Shown piece after piece: positions 6,739 to 25,567 of a stretch of DNA of 51,807 nucleotides. Position numbers and translations under genes: made by a program. The stretch lies in the NCBI RefSeq assembly GCF_003334765.1, contig NZ_QOWT01000029.1; one strand, given 5' to 3'. The notes beneath the pieces were generated by a model. It had not been told where the DNA came from. It saw only the letters and a list, made by a program, of their open reading frames with translations, and did no database searches. This DNA is from Escherichia coli. Its GTDB lineage: Bacteria; Pseudomonadota; Gammaproteobacteria; Enterobacterales; Enterobacteriaceae. How positions within the stretch are numbered: the stretch's first letter is position 1; every line of letters begins with the position of its first letter.

Positions 6739-7272
<534 letters not shown>

Positions 7273-7356
7273 GACGGATAAGGCGTTCACGCCGCATCCG
7301 GCATTCGGTGCACGATGCCTGATGCGACGCTGCCGCGTCTTATCAGGCCTACAAAA
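7273..7356. repeat. REP element pair (BIME) filling the yjjX-trpR gap
   Basis: GCCGCATCCGGCA ... GCCTGATGCGACGC ... CTTATCAGGCCTACA palindromic units. Confidence 0.75.
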
Positions 7357-9920: not shown

Positions 9921-11588
9921 GTGGCTCAATTCGTTTATACCATGCATCGTGTCGGCAAAGTTGTTCCGCCGAAACGTCATATTTTGAAAAACATCTCTCT
10001 GAGTTTCTTCCCTGGGGCAAAAATTGGTGTCCTGGGTCTGAACGGCGCGGGTAAGTCTACCCTGCTGCGCATTATGGCGGGCATTGATAAAGACATCGAA
10101 GGTGAAGCACGTCCGCAGCCAGACATCAAGATTGGTTATCTGCCGCAGGAACCGCAGCTGAACCCGGAACACACCGTGCGTGAGTCCATTGAAGAAGCGG
10201 TTTCTGAAGTGGTTAACGCCCTGAAACGCCTGGATGAAGTGTATGCGCTGTACGCCGATCCGGATGCCGATTTTGACAAGCTGGCCGCTGAACAAGGCCG
10301 TCTGGAAGAGATCATTCAGGCTCACGACGGTCATAACCTGAACGTACAGCTGGAGCGTGCGGCGGATGCGCTGCGTCTGCCAGATTGGGACGCGAAAATC
10401 GCTAACCTCTCCGGTGGTGAGCGTCGTCGCGTGGCGTTGTGCCGCCTGCTGCTGGAAAAACCAGACATGCTGCTGCTCGACGAACCGACCAACCACCTGG
10501 ATGCCGAATCCGTGGCGTGGCTGGAACGCTTCCTGCACGACTTCGAAGGCACCGTGGTGGCGATTACTCACGACCGTTACTTCCTCGATAACGTTGCAGG
10601 CTGGATCCTCGAACTGGACCGCGGTGAAGGTATTCCGTGGGAAGGTAACTACTCCTCCTGGCTGGAGCAGAAAGATCAGCGTCTGGCGCAGGAAGCTTCA
10701 CAAGAAGCGGCGCGTCGTAAGTCGATCGAGAAAGAGCTGGAGTGGGTACGTCAGGGTACTAAAGGCCGTCAGTCGAAAGGTAAAGCACGTCTGGCACGTT
10801 TTGAAGAGCTGAACAGCACCGAATATCAGAAACGTAACGAAACCAACGAACTGTTTATTCCACCTGGACCGCGTCTGGGCGATAAAGTGCTGGAAGTCAG
10901 CAACCTGCGTAAATCCTACGGCGATCGCCTGCTGATTGATGACCTGAGCTTCTCGATCCCGAAAGGGGCGATCGTCGGGATCATCGGTCCGAACGGCGCG
11001 GGTAAATCGACCCTGTTCCGTATGATCTCCGGTCAGGAACAGCCGGACAGCGGCACCATCACTTTGGGTGAAACGGTGAAACTGGCATCGGTTGATCAGT
11101 TCCGTGACTCAATGGATAACAGCAAAACCGTTTGGGAAGAAGTTTCCGGCGGGCTGGATATTATGAAGATCGGCAACACCGAGATGCCAAGCCGCGCCTA
11201 CGTTGGCCGCTTTAACTTTAAAGGGGTTGATCAGGGTAAACGTGTTGGCGAACTTTCCGGTGGTGAGCGCGGTCGTCTGCATCTGGCGAAGCTGCTGCAG
11301 GTTGGCGGCAACATGCTGCTGCTCGACGAACCAACCAACGACCTGGATATCGAAACCCTGCGCGCGCTGGAAAACGCCCTGCTGGAGTTCCCGGGCTGTG
11401 CGATGGTTATCTCGCACGACCGTTGGTTCCTCGACCGTATCGCCACGCACATCCTGGACTACCAGGATGAAGGTAAAGTTGAGTTCTTCGAAGGTAACTT
11501 TACTGAGTACGAAGAGTACAAGAAACGCACGCTGGGCGCAGACGCACTGGAGCCGAAGCGTATCAAGTACAAGCGTATTGCGAAGTAA
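9921..11588 (+). CDS. ettA: Energy-dependent translational throttle ABC-F ATPase EttA
   Basis: 555-aa ORF with two ABC cassettes (two Walker A GxxGxGKST, two LSGGE signatures). Confidence 0.96.
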   Translation: MAQFVYTMHRVGKVVPPKRHILKNISLSFFPGAKIGVLGLNGAGKSTLLRIMAGIDKDIEGEARPQPDIKIGYLPQEPQLNPEHTVRESIEEAVSEVVNALKRLDEVYALYADPDADFDKLAAEQGRLEEIIQAHDGHNLNVQLERAADALRLPDWDAKIANLSGGERRRVALCRLLLEKPDMLLLDEPTNHLDAESVAWLERFLHDFEGTVVAITHDRYFLDNVAGWILELDRGEGIPWEGNYSSWLEQKDQRLAQEASQEAARRKSIEKELEWVRQGTKGRQSKGKARLARFEELNSTEYQKRNETNELFIPPGPRLGDKVLEVSNLRKSYGDRLLIDDLSFSIPKGAIVGIIGPNGAGKSTLFRMISGQEQPDSGTITLGETVKLASVDQFRDSMDNSKTVWEEVSGGLDIMKIGNTEMPSRAYVGRFNFKGVDQGKRVGELSGGERGRLHLAKLLQVGGNMLLLDEPTNDLDIETLRALENALLEFPGCAMVISHDRWFLDRIATHILDYQDEGKVEFFEGNFTEYEEYKKRTLGADALEPKRIKYKRIAK

Positions 11589-11595
11589 TGCGTAA

Positions 11596-11752
11596 AATGC
11601 CGGATGCGGCGTGAACGCCTTATCCGGCCTACAAACCAAGAAATTTCAATACGTTGTGAATCTCCAGGCCTGATAAGACGCGGTAAGCGTCGCATCAGGC
11701 ATTGAGCACCGAATGCCGGATGCGGCGTGAACACCTTTTCCGGTCTACAACA
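11596..11752. repeat. BIME cluster of several REP units
   Basis: Repeated GCCGGATGCGGCGTGAACGCCTTATCCGGCCTACA and GCCTGATAAGACGCG...CGCATCAGGC units. Confidence 0.8.
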
Positions 11753-11895
11753 GCCTTAGCATCCTCAATTTCGTGGCGGGTCACCCGTGCAGGTTTTTTC
11801 AAACCTTGTTTAATCTCGACAGCCTCTTCCAGAGAGGTTTTCAACTCATCAAAAAAACTCATTTTATACCTCGCCTTTGAGCAGTTTCGTCACGG

Positions 11896-13128
11896 TTATC
11901 CTTGCTCCCCCATCATCTCCCGCACCAGCTCCACGCAGCGCAGGAAACGGCTGTCGTAATCGTCCTCTTCAACCCGCACGAATTCGATATTGTTCTCTTC
12001 CAGCATCTCCACCAGCAAGTTCTGGAACTCTTTGCGATCCACCGAACTGCCGAGGCTGCGTAAACCATCCGCCACCCACGGCGTGTTGTTCTCCAGCAGG
12101 ATCACCAGATCGAAACGGTATTCATCAATCAGCGCCTGCACGAACGGATGCTCACGCCCTTCGTACTTTTTGCAGAACGCCTGGGTAGTGACAAAATCGG
12201 TGTCAATAAACGCCACTTTATTGGCGTATTTCACTGCAAAATCAATGTATTGTGCGTGGCCCAACGCGATTTTATCGTAGTCGGAATACTGCAATGCGAT
12301 CTCATCACCGCCGAGGTGTGAAAAGACATAATCGCGGCCATATTCCCACGCACTGGTGGTGTTGAAGATATTGGCAAGTTTGTTTACCAGGGTGGATTTA
12401 CCGCTCGACTCGCCGCCAAGGATCGCCACGGTACGCACAAAAAACGGCTTCACTTCGGTAGGAATATATTCCCAGTAGCGGAACGGGTTTTCGCGGATCT
12501 GCGCACCGCTGATACTCATAAAGGTACGTTTCGGATCGACCAGCACCGTCTCGATCCCCAGATGTTCCATATACTGTGGCGCATCGGCTTCTTCCGAGGT
12601 GTAGATCAGATCCGGCTGGATCCCTTTTTCAGCCATAAACTTTTTGATACCGTTGCTCCACACATCCCAGCCGTGCGGATACGGCTCCATGCCCTCTTCG
12701 TTGAAAGCATGAATGCGAATATTTTTCTGATATTTAAAAGTTTGCAATAACCAGCGCAGACGATCCGGCACGGTCGGCTGCTGCGACATGGCACTGTCTT
12801 CGAACAACGCGCGGTCACGGGTATCGTCAAAACCCATAATGATATGCAGCTCGTCAACCTGGCTACAGGCGCGCTGGATAAGATAGATATGTCCGGTATG
12901 CAGCGGGTAGAACTTACCGAATACCACACCGATCGTTTTCTTCTGTCGGGGAAATTCAAGCCCCAAAAAACGGTGCAACGCCTCCAGCTTTTGCGCGCTA
13001 GGGCTTTTGATTTTGGCATTCAGTAACTGGCTTAAATACCCTTTGGTCATACCGCTGGCATCAGCTACCTGCTGTAGCGTGCAGCCCTGTTGCTTGATGG
13101 CAGTTTTCAGGTAATCAAATGACGACAT
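11896..13128 (-). CDS. nadR: Trifunctional NAD biosynthesis regulator and NMN adenylyltransferase NadR
   Basis: ORF track 417 aa; start moved to MSSFDYLK to give 410 aa; N-terminal HTH, HxGH adenylyltransferase motif (YPLHTGH), Walker A GGESSGKST. Confidence 0.93.
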   Translation of the reverse strand: MSSFDYLKTAIKQQGCTLQQVADASGMTKGYLSQLLNAKIKSPSAQKLEALHRFLGLEFPRQKKTIGVVFGKFYPLHTGHIYLIQRACSQVDELHIIMGFDDTRDRALFEDSAMSQQPTVPDRLRWLLQTFKYQKNIRIHAFNEEGMEPYPHGWDVWSNGIKKFMAEKGIQPDLIYTSEEADAPQYMEHLGIETVLVDPKRTFMSISGAQIRENPFRYWEYIPTEVKPFFVRTVAILGGESSGKSTLVNKLANIFNTTSAWEYGRDYVFSHLGGDEIALQYSDYDKIALGHAQYIDFAVKYANKVAFIDTDFVTTQAFCKKYEGREHPFVQALIDEYRFDLVILLENNTPWVADGLRSLGSSVDRKEFQNLLVEMLEENNIEFVRVEEDDYDSRFLRCVELVREMMGEQG

Positions 13129-13148
13129 ATCTCCCTCCGTATCTCTCA

Positions 13149-14531
13149 TTATAAGTCGTCGAACACGCTAAGCGCGTCGGAGAGTTTTTTAACGCCAAAA
13201 ATCTGCATCCCTTCCGGCGCTTTTTTCGGTACGTTAGCCGCCGGAACAATCGCCCGGCGAAAACCGTGTTTCGCCGCTTCAGAGATTCGTTCCTGCCCGC
13301 TGGGCACCGGGCGGATCTCCCCTGCCAGCCCGACTTCACCAAACACCACCAGATCCTGTGGCAGCGGTCTGTCACGCAGGCTGGAAACCATCGCCAGCAG
13401 TAACGCTAAATCGGCACTGGTTTCTGTCACCTTCACGCCGCCGACCACGTTCACAAACACATCCTGATCGGCCATTTGCAGACCACCGTGACGGTGCAAG
13501 ACAGCCAGCAGGATCGCCAGACGGTTTTGCTCCAGACCTACCGCCACGCGGCGCGGATTCGCCATCATCGAGTGATCGACCAGCGCCTGAATCTCCACCA
13601 GCAACGGACGCGTTCCTTCCCACACCACCATCACGGAGCTGCCGGAGGTCACTTCATCTCCGCGACTTAAGAAAATTGCCGAAGGGTTGCTGACTTCACG
13701 CAGCCCCTGTTCGGTCATCGCGAAGACGCCCAGCTCATTCACCGCGCCGAAGCGGTTTTTATGGCTGCGCAAGGTGCGAAAACGGGAGTCGGCATCACCA
13801 TCCAGAAGCACCGAACAGTCGATACAGTGTTCCAGCACTTTAGGGCCAGCCAGCGAGCCATCTTTGGTTACGTGCCCAACCATGACAATCGCCACACCGC
13901 GCGTTTTGGCGAAGCGCGTCAGATAAGCCGCCGTTTCACGCACCTGCGCCACGCTGCCAGGCGATGACTGTACATCCGCCATATGCATCACCTGAATGGA
14001 GTCAATTACCATCAGCTTCGGTTGCTCTTCTTCGGCAATCAGGCAGATCTGCTCGATGCTGGTTTCCGACAACATATTGAGATTGTCAGTCGGCAGGCCA
14101 AGGCGATGAGCGCGCATTGCCACCTGTTGCAGCGACTCTTCGCCAGTGACATATAGCGTTTTCATCTGCTGCGCCAGTTTGCACAGCGTTTGCAGTAGCA
14201 GCGTGGATTTCCCCGCGCCTGGGTTACCGCCAATCAGAATGGCGCTTCCTGGCACTACGCCACCGCCTAATACGCGATCGAACTCTTTAAATCCGGTTGA
14301 AAAACGCGGCAACTCCTCAAGGCTGATATCGGAGAGTTTCTGGACTTTTGCCACCCCGGCGCTACCGGCATAGCCACTGAGACGCTCGTTACGCGCCACC
14401 GTTGGCGACGCAGCAAGACGCACCTCGGTGATGGTGTTCCAGGCATGGCAGGCGTTGCACTGCCCCTGCCAGCGCGGATAATCGGCCCCGCATTCATTAC
14501 AAACAAAGGCGCGTTTTGGAGCTTTTGCCAC
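13149..14531 (-). CDS. radA: DNA repair protein RadA (Sms)
   Basis: ORF track 476 aa; start moved to GTG (VAKAPKRAF) to give 460 aa; zinc finger CxxC-x10-CxxC, RecA-like Walker A GNPGAGKST, Lon-like C-terminus. Confidence 0.93.
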   Translation of the reverse strand: MAKAPKRAFVCNECGADYPRWQGQCNACHAWNTITEVRLAASPTVARNERLSGYAGSAGVAKVQKLSDISLEELPRFSTGFKEFDRVLGGGVVPGSAILIGGNPGAGKSTLLLQTLCKLAQQMKTLYVTGEESLQQVAMRAHRLGLPTDNLNMLSETSIEQICLIAEEEQPKLMVIDSIQVMHMADVQSSPGSVAQVRETAAYLTRFAKTRGVAIVMVGHVTKDGSLAGPKVLEHCIDCSVLLDGDADSRFRTLRSHKNRFGAVNELGVFAMTEQGLREVSNPSAIFLSRGDEVTSGSSVMVVWEGTRPLLVEIQALVDHSMMANPRRVAVGLEQNRLAILLAVLHRHGGLQMADQDVFVNVVGGVKVTETSADLALLLAMVSSLRDRPLPQDLVVFGEVGLAGEIRPVPSGQERISEAAKHGFRRAIVPAANVPKKAPEGMQIFGVKKLSDALSVFDDL

Positions 14532-24671: not shown

Positions 24672-24790
24672 CATGCCGGATGTGGCCTACAGTTCGGCAC
24701 AGACTTGTAGGCATGATAAGACGCGTCAAGCGTCGCATCAGGCATTGTGCGCCAACTGCCGGATGCGGCGTGAACGCCTTATCCGGCCTA
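24672..24790. repeat. BIME/REP cluster between yjjW and yjjV
   Basis: GCCGGATGTGGCCTACA, GATAAGACGCG...CGCATCAGGC, GCCGGATGCGGCGTGAACGCCTTATCCGGCCTACA; last unit overlaps the yjjV stop codon. Confidence 0.75.
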
Positions 24791-25567
24791 CAGCACGTTA
24801 AACAACGTATACGTGTTATTAAGCAACACTTCGGCAATTTCATCTGCGGGTTCCAAGCGTAACTCACAAAGCACAGCAAACACCCGCGCGGCCTGTTCCG
24901 GGCGGTTAGGCTGCCCCTGAAAACCGTTGAGCGGCATATCCGGCGCGTCGGTTTCCAGCAACAACGATGCCAGCGGTAATTTTGCGATGACATCGCGGGT
25001 TTTACTGGCGCGTGGATAGGTGATAGTGCCGCCTACGCCAATTTTGTAGCCCAGCTGTACAAACCGTTCAGCCTGTTGCAGGCTGCCGGAAAAACCGTGA
25101 ACCACGCCAGTACGCGGCAAATCGTGGCGTTTAAGATGCATCGCCAGTTTGTCGTGCGTGCGCCGTGAATGCAGGATCACCGGCAGATCGTAGCGTTTCG
25201 CCAGTTTCAGTTGTTCGTCGAGTAACCACTGCTGCCTCTCAAATTGCGGATCGTCGCCAAAGAGATCCAGGCCGATCTCCCCCACCGCCACCACCTTCGC
25301 CGGATGCCTTTCCAGCGCCTGCTGTAACTGCTCCAGCGATGCATCGCTATGTTTTTCTAACATCCCCGGATGCAACCCTAACGCGCCATACAGCGGTTGA
25401 TATTTTTCCGCTAACGCCTGCACGCGGGCAAAATTTTCCGCCTCTGTCGCCGGAACAATGATCTTGCCTACGCCCGCTTGTTCCGCGCGTTGCAGGCTGG
25501 CCTCTTCATCACCACTAAACGGCGGGAAATCAAAATGGCAGTGGGTGTCGATAAAACGGCAAATCAA
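24788..25567 (-). CDS. yjjV: TatD-family metal-dependent hydrolase YjjV
   Basis: 259-aa ORF with N-terminal HxH metal motif (DTHCHFD). Confidence 0.9.
   Translation of the reverse strand: MICRFIDTHCHFDFPPFSGDEEASLQRAEQAGVGKIIVPATEAENFARVQALAEKYQPLYGALGLHPGMLEKHSDASLEQLQQALERHPAKVVAVGEIGLDLFGDDPQFERQQWLLDEQLKLAKRYDLPVILHSRRTHDKLAMHLKRHDLPRTGVVHGFSGSLQQAERFVQLGYKIGVGGTITYPRASKTRDVIAKLPLASLLLETDAPDMPLNGFQGQPNRPEQAARVFAVLCELRLEPADEIAEVLLNNTYTLFNVL

What the first reader, a model, noticed from the sequence alone, without database searches (positions are those of the whole stretch)
11695..11862. Unannotated 55-codon ORF just after nadR that reads into the BIME repeat cluster
On the minus strand, 33 bp after the nadR stop, an ATG at 11862 preceded by GAGG opens MSFFDELKTSLEEAVEIKQGLKKPARVTRHEIEDAKA. 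Its last 18 codons are encoded by REP repeat sequence. It could be a translationally coupled small protein, or the N-terminal stump of a gene destroyed by BIME insertion. It was missed by the ORF track because it is under 60 aa.
Basis: seen in the sequence. Interest (0 to 1): 0.3.

Follow-up and report, generated by a model that had tools for sequence, protein, structure and literature searches.

The report
Stump of a decayed antitoxin gene
The 55-codon ORF after nadR is the leftover front end of an antitoxin gene (nadS) from a toxin–antitoxin pair that has mostly rotted away in this E. coli lineage; it is already annotated and reported as expressed, so it is ordinary.

Summary
The ORF exists exactly as described (11695–11862, minus strand, 55 codons, GAGG + ATG 33 nt after the nadR stop, last 18 codons in REP/BIME sequence). 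Its first 37 residues pass the curated cut-off of NCBIfam NF041265 (NadS). RefSeq/PGAP already annotates this DNA as nadS, either as a pseudogene or as a 55-aa CDS. About 12% of complete E. coli genomes, and an E. fergusonii-type locus, carry an intact HigB-2-type toxin (110 aa) plus NadS (94 aa, HigA-2-type antitoxin) between nadR and ettA. In the window, the 30 nt before the ATG are the last 9 codons and stop of the toxin gene. nadS is cut after codon 37 and runs into a BIME. The toxin deletion came first and the antitoxin was then truncated at least twice independently. At least 1,773 genomes have also lost the ATG and carry a frameshift. The stump has residues never seen in 78 functional homologues. 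A 2025 reporter-transposon study (PIRT-Seq) reports expression of this exact ORF in K-12. Verdict: a translated but most likely functionless gene relic, already known. It keeps the toxin-neutralising helix, so a residual "orphan antitoxin" role is not excluded but is unlikely.

The parts
11896..13149 (-). nadR coding sequence (upstream neighbour; the stump most likely rides on its read-through transcript)
   Evidence: ORF of 417 aa; identical DNA is annotated nadR in RefSeq genomes.
11864..11893 (-). Remnant of the HigB-2-type toxin gene: last 9 codons (VTKLLKGEV) plus stop. It contains the GAGG Shine-Dalgarno (11872-11869) that served the downstream antitoxin gene.
   Evidence: Matches the 3' end of the intact toxin gene in strain AH19D088 (L002:1961-1989..LTKLLKGEI*). 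Megablast alignments of the intact module to remnant-bearing genomes start at query position 396-400, i.e. 26-30 nt before the nadS ATG. tblastn places toxin residues 102-110 at 11893-11867.
11752..11862 (-). nadS-derived part of the ORF: codons 1-37, the N-terminal toxin-neutralising segment of a HigA-2-type antitoxin. The whole helix-turn-helix domain (residues ~33-91 of full-length NadS) is missing.
   Evidence: NCBIfam NF041265 NadS, 63.8 bits, cut-off 60. 33 of 37 residues identical to intact E. coli NadS. A NadS profile aligns positions 3-92 with V. cholerae HigA-2 residues 6-102, E 8.6e-9. HTH_3 maps to residues 35-79 of full-length NadS.
11695..11751 (-). REP/BIME-encoded tail of the ORF: codons 38-55 (VVDRKRCSRRIRHSVLNA) plus the TGA stop
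   Evidence: Lies in the Y REP 11712-11750 and the start of the Z REP 11666-11700. Low-confidence region in the structure model.
11596..11750 (.). BIME: Y REP (11712-11750), Z REP (11666-11700, opposite orientation), spacer, Y REP (11596-11634), abutting the ettA stop
   Evidence: the repeat finder; consensus searches with 0 expected by chance; three hairpins in the RNA fold, z = -2.8; the 401-nt query containing it hits a median of 38 places per E. coli genome.
11667..11745 (-). Match to Rfam naRNA4 (RF02564), a REP/BIME-derived sRNA family, lying under the ORF tail
   Evidence: 69.1 bits against a gathering score of 59.5, E 4.2e-12. Read here as a repeat-family match, not as evidence of a functional sRNA at this site.
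9921..11588 (+). ettA coding sequence (convergent downstream neighbour)
   Evidence: ORF of 555 aa; annotated ettA in RefSeq genomes.

Best explanation
The ORF is a relic of a type II toxin-antitoxin cassette of the HigB-2/HigA-2 kind (RelE-fold toxin gene first, then the antitoxin gene nadS) that sat between nadR and ettA in an ancestor of Escherichia. In the lineage of this window the decay ran in steps. (1) A deletion of about 395 bp removed the cassette's promoter/operator region and toxin codons 1-101. It left the last 9 toxin codons, the stop, and the antitoxin's native ribosome-binding site and ATG directly behind nadR (shown). (2) The orphaned antitoxin gene was cut after codon 37 and its 3' part was replaced by a REP/BIME cluster, so the frame now runs 18 codons into repeat sequence to a TGA (shown). 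With no promoter of its own left, the stump is probably transcribed by read-through from nadR (inferred). It is translated at a low level from the inherited RBS (reported for the identical ORF in K-12 by PIRT-Seq). The product keeps the disordered toxin-binding N-terminus but lacks the DNA-binding/dimerisation domain, and these genomes have no cognate toxin. It most likely does nothing and is drifting towards loss (inferred from population data).
For: Family and annotation: NadS hit above the curated cut-off; PGAP annotates a nadS pseudogene or CDS at this DNA. Intact ancestor at the same site: toxin (110 aa) + NadS (94 aa) between nadR and ettA in E. coli AH19D088, in 674 of 5426 genomes, and in an E. 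fergusonii-type contig radA-nadR-RelE-NadS-ettA-slt. Nature of the pair: the toxin matches HigB-2 (PDB, E 8e-17; Pfam PF06296; model vs 5jaa_D TM 0.86). NadS matches HigA-2. 70 of 80 species loci with NadS have this toxin gene directly upstream. Toxin remnant. Order of events: the E597/67-1/FDAARGOS_448 alleles share the window's toxin-deletion junction but truncate nadS at about codon 43 into unrelated DNA. An Escherichia sp. has an independent toxin deletion with NadS intact. Decay: 6 of 6 inspected 185-nt alleles have ATG->ATA plus a 1-nt deletion; that exact allele is in 1,773 genomes against 1,337 with the exact intact start region. ATG->TTG and a 10-nt deletion occur in other alleles. 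The window's stump has A33E and V35A (0 of 78 functional homologues) and Y30H (3 of 78). No partner: a full toxin gene is in only 681 of 5426 genomes, 673 of the places chromosomal, and there is none in the window. No sigma-70-like promoter lies in 11400-12200. Translation: PMC12350097 lists this exact ORF as CDS214/nadS and calls it expressed.
Against: The ORF is intact, with a good RBS, in roughly a quarter of E. coli genomes including K-12 and O157:H7, and it is reported as translated. Residues 1-22, the part that aligns with the HigA2 helix sufficient for neutralisation (PMC5416850, PMC8438204), are identical to functional E. coli NadS. A fusion model predicts that the stump still adopts helix 3-18 and strand 26-31 next to the toxin with high confidence. 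So loss of all function is inferred, not shown. The translation evidence is thin: one insertion position and 7 reads, and the western-blot outcome for this ORF is not stated in the text. Read-through transcription from nadR was not tested.
Confidence: 0.85

Rival explanations
1. The stump is a functional 'micro-antitoxin'. Translated from nadR read-through, its N-terminal helix still binds HigB-2-type toxins. It protects the cell against cognate toxins that arrive on small plasmids or by recombination (an anti-addiction role), with no need for the DNA-binding domain.
For: In V. cholerae HigA2, residues 1-37 are the neutralising segment, and peptide 3-22/23 alone binds at picomolar affinity and neutralises (PMC5416850, PMC8438204). 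NadS F3/F4/L7/S10/L11 align with the HigA2 hotspots L6/F7/L10/A13/L14, and these residues are unchanged in the stump. The fusion model gives helix 3-18 (pLDDT ~92) and strand 26-31 (~81). Related toxins (~80% aa identity) sit on many ~5-kb enterobacterial plasmids, and 34 plasmid records are from Escherichia. The ORF is reported as expressed.
Against: At least 1,773 genomes carry the same stump with the ATG destroyed and a frameshift. Other alleles have TTG starts or a 10-nt deletion, and 463 genomes have lost everything. So there is no species-wide selection for the product. Positions 30, 33 and 35 in the predicted strand region carry substitutions that are absent or rare in functional NadS. 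Cognate toxins are very rare in stump-bearing E. coli: only 8 genomes have just a divergent plasmid copy. The model gives no interface measure, and the fusion design and paired alignment favour docking.
Confidence: 0.08
2. The ORF encodes a small protein that works with NadR or NAD metabolism. It would be translationally linked to nadR and co-conserved with it, as the gene name and the PIRT-Seq discussion suggest.
For: It lies 33 nt after nadR on the same strand with an RBS. PIRT-Seq lists it among small proteins co-conserved with neighbours ('NAD+ biosynthesis (nadR)').
Against: Only 1 of 80 species loci with NadS lies next to nadR, while 70 of 80 have a RelE-fold toxin upstream. So the family's partner is a toxin and the nadR linkage is an accident of insertion site. 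In the intact locus the toxin gene and its own regulatory region separate nadR from nadS. The ORF is dead or absent in most E. coli although nadR is kept.
Confidence: 0.03
3. The relevant element is not the ORF but the RNA: the BIME/naRNA4-like unit acts as an mRNA stabiliser, terminator or HU-binding RNA for the convergent nadR and ettA transcripts, and the ORF is an irrelevant by-product.
For: Rfam naRNA4 match above gathering score at 11667-11745; three stable REP hairpins; the BIME is kept even in genomes that lack the stump (L003).
Against: This does not explain the nadS-homologous 111 nt or the toxin remnant, which are the substance of the finding. It is compatible with the main explanation rather than an alternative to it. 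No expression data were examined for this site.
Confidence: 0.04

Closest known systems
NadS family protein (NCBIfam NF041265), as annotated by PGAP downstream of nadR in E. coli
   Same: The first 37 residues match profile positions 1-37 above the curated cut-off. Identical DNA is annotated nadS in RefSeq genomes. The identical 55-aa sequence is in public protein collections on at least 1000 contigs.
   Different: Full-length members have 94 aa with a helix-turn-helix domain. The window's product covers only profile positions 1-46 of 94 and ends in repeat-encoded residues.
Vibrio cholerae HigB-2/HigA-2 toxin-antitoxin module (PDB 5JAA, 8A0X)
   Same: The intact E. coli cassette has the same gene order (toxin first). 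Its toxin matches HigB-2 by sequence and by model. Its antitoxin aligns with HigA-2 over almost its whole length, including the N-terminal neutralising helix. The stump corresponds to the HigA2 segment 1-37, which binds the toxin (PMC5416850, PMC8438204).
   Different: In the window the toxin gene is reduced to 9 codons, the antitoxin lacks its DNA-binding domain, and the operator region is deleted. Sequence identity to the Vibrio proteins is low (about 30-36% for the toxin). No activity was tested for the E. coli proteins.
REP/BIME elements of E. coli and the REP-derived naRNA4 family (Rfam RF02564)
   Same: The 3' third of the ORF and the DNA down to ettA consist of Y and Z REPs in alternating orientation. 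One Y-Z unit scores above the Rfam gathering threshold.
   Different: Here a REP abuts the middle of a former coding sequence and supplies 18 codons and the stop. Nothing shows that this copy makes a functional sRNA.
CDS214 / nadS in the PIRT-Seq screen of E. coli K-12 BW25113 (NAR 2025, PMC12350097)
   Same: Exactly the same 55-aa ORF (BW25113 4618398-4618565), reported as expressed under laboratory growth.
   Different: That paper treats it as a newly supported small gene co-conserved with nadR. Its main text does not use the words 'truncated' or 'pseudogene' and does not link the ORF to a toxin partner. The comparative evidence here shows a decaying toxin-antitoxin remnant.

Membership tests
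NadS family (NCBIfam NF041265, equivalog) | Whole-protein score at or above the curated cut-off of 60 bits | tested here: met
   69.1 bits for the 55-aa ORF and 63.8 bits for residues 1-37; full-length E. coli NadS scores 182.6 bits.
NadS family (NCBIfam NF041265, equivalog) | Full-length coverage of the 94-position profile, including the helix-turn-helix domain | tested here: not met
   Only profile positions 1-46 are matched. HTH_3 lies at residues 35-79 of intact NadS. Homology in the window ends at codon 37. It is a fragment of a family member, not a complete member.
HigB-2/HigA-2-type type II toxin-antitoxin module | RelE-fold toxin gene immediately upstream of the antitoxin gene on the same strand | tested here: not met
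   In the window only the last 9 toxin codons remain. The feature is met in intact E. coli alleles, in 70 of 80 species loci and in L098.
HigB-2/HigA-2-type type II toxin-antitoxin module | Antitoxin with an N-terminal toxin-neutralising segment homologous to HigA-2 residues 1-37 | tested here: met
   The NadS profile aligns positions 3-92 with HigA-2 residues 6-102 (E 8.6e-9). The stump keeps residues 1-22 unchanged. The fusion model gives helix 3-18 and strand 26-31. Binding itself was not tested.
HigB-2/HigA-2-type type II toxin-antitoxin module | Antitoxin C-terminal HTH dimerisation/DNA-binding domain and an operator for autoregulation | tested here: not met
   The HTH domain is absent from the window's ORF. 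The upstream region of the intact locus, with two GTGTACnnnGTAC repeats, is deleted in the window.
HigB-2/HigA-2-type type II toxin-antitoxin module | Toxicity of the toxin and its neutralisation by the antitoxin | not testable with these tools
   This needs expression experiments. Only homology to the characterised V. cholerae pair is available.
REP/BIME repeats | Imperfect palindromic ~35-nt units matching the Y and Z consensus, many copies per genome, alternating orientation within a cluster | tested here: met
   Y at 11599-11632 and 11715-11748 (+), Z at 11666-11700 (-). Further copies lie at 7269, 24709 and 24758, with 0 expected by chance. Median of 38 places per genome for the region.
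naRNA4 (Rfam RF02564) | Covariance-model score at or above the gathering threshold | tested here: met
   69.1 bits against 59.5 at 11667-11745 (-). Expression or HU binding of this copy was not tested.
Functional small protein gene | Evidence of translation | not testable with these tools
   From the literature only: PIRT-Seq reports expression (one in-frame insertion position, 7 reads; the western result for this ORF is not stated). Ribosome-profiling supplements were not held or were cut off.
Functional small protein gene | Reading frame and start codon conserved among relatives | tested here: not met
   ATG->ATA plus a frameshift in 6 of 6 inspected 185-nt alleles, and that exact allele in 1,773 genomes. 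TTG starts, a 10-nt deletion and complete loss occur in others.

The most novel reading that the evidence does not exclude
In the lineages that keep the ORF intact (K-12, O157:H7, this window), the translated stump acts as a domain-minimal orphan antitoxin. Its unchanged N-terminal helix would sequester HigB-2-type toxins delivered by small mobilisable plasmids or by recombination from phylogroup B2 strains. That would blunt plasmid addiction without any DNA-binding domain.
Probability: 0.07. Interest if true: 0.5.

Novelty: already known. Interest (0 to 1): 0.15.

Why it matters
The practical value is in annotation. This ORF should be read as a toxin–antitoxin relic, not as a nadR-linked small-protein gene, and reporter or ribosome evidence of translation at such relics does not imply function. 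The locus is also a compact natural series of toxin–antitoxin decay within one species, where each step can be read directly. The series runs from intact pair, to toxin deleted, to antitoxin truncated (twice independently), to start codon lost, to everything gone. If the stump still neutralised incoming toxins, it would be an example of a minimal anti-addiction peptide, but the population data argue against it.

Tried and rejected
Chance ORF: rejected by the family hit and by synteny with intact alleles.

'BIME insertion alone destroyed the gene': incomplete. The toxin deletion is shared by alleles with a different 3' truncation, so it came first.

nadR-linked function: rejected because the family's constant neighbour is a toxin gene, not nadR.

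PDB sequence search with the 37 residues alone: nothing. Only a family profile reached the HigA-2 N-terminus.

Promoter scans: no sigma-70-like site near the stump. The simple scan also did not pick out a convincing promoter in the regulatory region of the intact locus, so the 'own promoter deleted' step rests on the deleted sequence and its GTGTACnnnGTAC repeats, not on a scored promoter.

Literature: 'NadS family' returned only NAD synthetase papers, and the peptide string is in no main text. Weaver 2019 had no held supplements. The Stringer 2021 supplement is cut before 4.6 Mb. The mBio and Mol Cell versions are not held. The acid-stress Ribo-seq supplements gave no hit.

The NCBIfam library has no model for the toxin.

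The structure models give no interface metric, so docking of the stump onto the toxin is only suggested by secondary structure and pLDDT.

Full report
OBSERVATION. There is a 55-codon ORF at 11695-11862. Its ATG lies 33 nt after the nadR stop (11898-11896), and GAGG sits 6 nt upstream of the ATG. The translation is MSFFDELKTSLEEAVEIKQGLKKPARVTRHEIEDAKA followed by VVDRKRCSRRIRHSVLNA. The last 18 codons and the stop lie in repeat DNA. This comprises a Y-type REP at 11712-11750, 92% identical to a copy at 11596-11634, and a Z-type REP at 11666-11700 in the opposite orientation. The Z REP contains the final codon and the TGA. Shuffled controls give 0 expected matches for either consensus. The region folds into three REP hairpins. 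One Y-Z unit (11667-11745) scores above the Rfam gathering threshold for naRNA4, a REP-derived sRNA family.

WHAT THE ORF IS. Residues 1-37 alone score 63.8 bits (E 1.4e-17) against NCBIfam NF041265 'NadS family protein', above its curated cut-off of 60, but they cover only the first 37-46 of 94 profile positions. A megablast of the region against 5,426 complete E. coli genomes shows that PGAP already labels this DNA 'nadS: NadS family protein'. In a strain with 100% identical DNA it is a pseudogene ('partial, missing C-terminus', 114 nt). In O157:H7 ATCC 35150, O19:H7 and K-12 BW25113 the 168-nt ORF is annotated as an ordinary CDS (WP_000007440.1, WP_000007433.1, WP_000007444.1). The K-12 reference record NC_000913.3 has no feature there, although K-12 carries the identical 55-aa ORF. 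The 55-aa sequence is present in public protein collections on at least 1000 contigs.

THE INTACT ANCESTOR. Strain AH19D088 carries two complete genes between nadR and ettA. One is annotated as a type II RelE/ParE-family toxin (110 aa). It is followed one base later by a 94-aa NadS. The toxin matches V. cholerae HigB-2 (PDB, E about 8e-17; Pfam PF06296). A model of it superposes on HigB2 from the HigBA2 complex (5jaa_D, TM 0.86, rmsd 1.8 A). NadS residues 33-91 match the HigA-2 helix-turn-helix domain (Pfam HTH_3 35-79). A profile of 30 NadS homologues aligns positions 3-92 with HigA-2 residues 6-102 in one stretch (E 8.6e-9). A scan of species-representative genomes found full-length NadS (69-98% identity) in 80 loci across Gammaproteobacteria. 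In 70 of them a HigB-2-type toxin gene lies directly upstream on the same strand, and only one locus (an Escherichia sp.) is next to nadR and ettA. So NadS is the antitoxin of a mobile HigB-2/HigA-2-type cassette, and its association with nadR is peculiar to Escherichia. An E. fergusonii-type NadS lies in an intact radA-nadR-RelE-NadS-ettA-slt arrangement, which suggests the intact cassette is the older state at this site.

HOW THE WINDOW'S STATE AROSE. The 30 nt before the ATG in the window (gtgacgaaactgctcaaaggcgaggtataa) correspond to the last 9 codons and the stop of the toxin gene (ttgacgaaactgctcaaaggcgagatataa in the intact allele). Alignments of the intact module to remnant-bearing genomes begin 26-30 nt before the nadS ATG. 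About 395 bp are gone: toxin codons 1-101 and the upstream region, which in the intact locus holds two GTGTACnnnGTAC repeats 22 nt apart (an operator role is inferred). At the 3' side, homology to nadS stops after codon 37 and REP sequence begins.

Alleles of the E597/67-1/FDAARGOS_448 type share the window's toxin-deletion junction (TAACCG|TGACGAAAC). They keep nadS to about codon 43 and then continue into unrelated DNA. So the toxin deletion came first and the orphaned antitoxin gene was truncated at least twice independently. The Escherichia sp. locus L006 shows a different toxin deletion (residues 77-110 kept) with NadS still intact, an independent example of the first step. A further allele (FCI29) has lost the remnant altogether and keeps only part of the BIME.

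POPULATION STATE.
- 674 of 5,426 genomes keep at least 80% of the intact module, and 463 have no trace of it.
- The toxin gene is found in 681 genomes, 673 of the places chromosomal.
- 3,771 genomes carry the stump with the same REP junction.
- In an evenly spaced sample of those genomes, 18 of 49 have the 186-nt form and 31 of 49 a 185-nt form.
- All six 185-nt alleles inspected have ATG->ATA plus a 1-nt deletion in the T-run, giving a stop after six codons.
- Direct counts give 1,773 genomes with exactly that dead start region and 1,337 with exactly the window's intact one.
- Other alleles have ATG->TTG or a 10-nt internal deletion.
- Against 78 full-length homologues, the window's stump carries A33E and V35A (0 of 78 each), Y30H (3 of 78) and E23K (3 of 78), while residues 1-22 are unchanged.

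This pattern is what relaxed constraint after truncation would produce.

EXPRESSION. No sigma-70-like promoter is found within 11400-12200 on either strand, and no terminator-like site lies between nadR and the ORF on the minus strand. Transcription by read-through from nadR is therefore the likely source (inference). [quoted passage not shown] Its Table S2 lists the exact 55-aa sequence as CDS214 with one insertion position (4618424) and a read sum of 7. The ORF was chosen for SPA-tag western validation, but the text does not say whether it was among the 6 of 12 intergenic candidates detected. The paper's main text does not describe it as truncated, although its supplementary alignment shows full-length homologues running on past the E. 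coli stop. I could not obtain ribosome-profiling data for this position.

WHAT THE STUMP RETAINS. In V. cholerae HigA2, residues 1-37 are intrinsically disordered and fold into a helix (3-22) and a strand on binding HigB2. Peptide 3-22/23 alone binds with picomolar affinity and neutralises the toxin (PMC5416850, PMC8438204). In the profile alignment, NadS F3, F4, L7, S10 and L11 fall on the HigA2 hotspots L6, F7, L10, A13 and L14. These residues are invariant or nearly so in the family and unchanged in the stump. An AlphaFold2 model of toxin-linker-stump, built with a locus-paired alignment, predicts stump helix 3-18 (pLDDT about 92) and strand 26-31 (about 81), with the REP-encoded tail at low confidence. 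The stump alone shows no strand. This is suggestive only, because the tool reports no interface measure and the design favours docking. Related toxins occur on many small enterobacterial plasmids, and 34 of the plasmid records are from Escherichia. A residual 'orphan antitoxin' role is therefore conceivable. The widespread destruction of the start codon, the non-family substitutions in the strand region, and the near absence of cognate toxins in stump-bearing genomes make it unlikely. I put it at about 7%.

VERDICT. The thing is a decaying HigB-2/HigA-2-type toxin-antitoxin locus: a toxin remnant, an antitoxin N-terminal stump, and a BIME. It is already annotated (PGAP, NCBIfam) and already reported as expressed in K-12. 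The toxin-antitoxin context and the order of decay events worked out here are a tidy clarification rather than a discovery. Interest is low.

Noticed in passing
window 11752-11862 (compared across alleles in alignments A1 and A3): Among stump alleles, codons 1-20 show no substitutions apart from the start-codon lesions. Codons 21-37 carry about 9 variable sites and the 40 nt upstream about 6. The E597-type alleles do have two changes in codons 1-20. The unevenness is unexplained, and few independent lineages are involved.
   Followed up: partly
window 11772-11789 (+ strand): A weak terminator-like hairpin plus T-run lies antisense to the stump, facing ettA read-through. The T-run is lengthened by the window haplotype's E23K change (gaa->aaa).
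   Followed up: no
window 24709-24791 and 7269-7302: A second BIME of the same Y/Z type (Z at 24709-24743, Y at 24758-24791) and a lone Y REP at 7269-7302.
   Followed up: no
L004, L086, L087 (E. coli E597, 67-1, FDAARGOS_448); about 411 genomes in the 80-90% identity band: In these strains the nadS remnant is followed by a different gene set (partial hypothetical, DUF1471, SRPBCC, SDR) instead of BIME-ettA. This is a rearrangement or island at the same junction.
   Followed up: partly
L002:1606-1640 (intact locus upstream of the toxin gene): Two GTGTACnnnGTAC repeats lie 22 nt apart, plausible operator sites for NadS autoregulation. They are deleted in the window.
   Followed up: no
protein databases and PMC12350097 supplement: One UniRef entry (G9LNM3_ECOLX) names the 55-aa product 'Lipid A biosynthesis protein'. 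PIRT-Seq's supplement predicts a transmembrane helix with a periplasmic N-terminus for it. Both are at odds with its homology to a cytoplasmic antitoxin N-terminus.
   Followed up: no
L006:2895-3282 (Escherichia sp. MOD1-EC7003): An independent intermediate state: the toxin gene is cut to its last 34 codons directly after nadR, with a full-length NadS still intact.
   Followed up: yes
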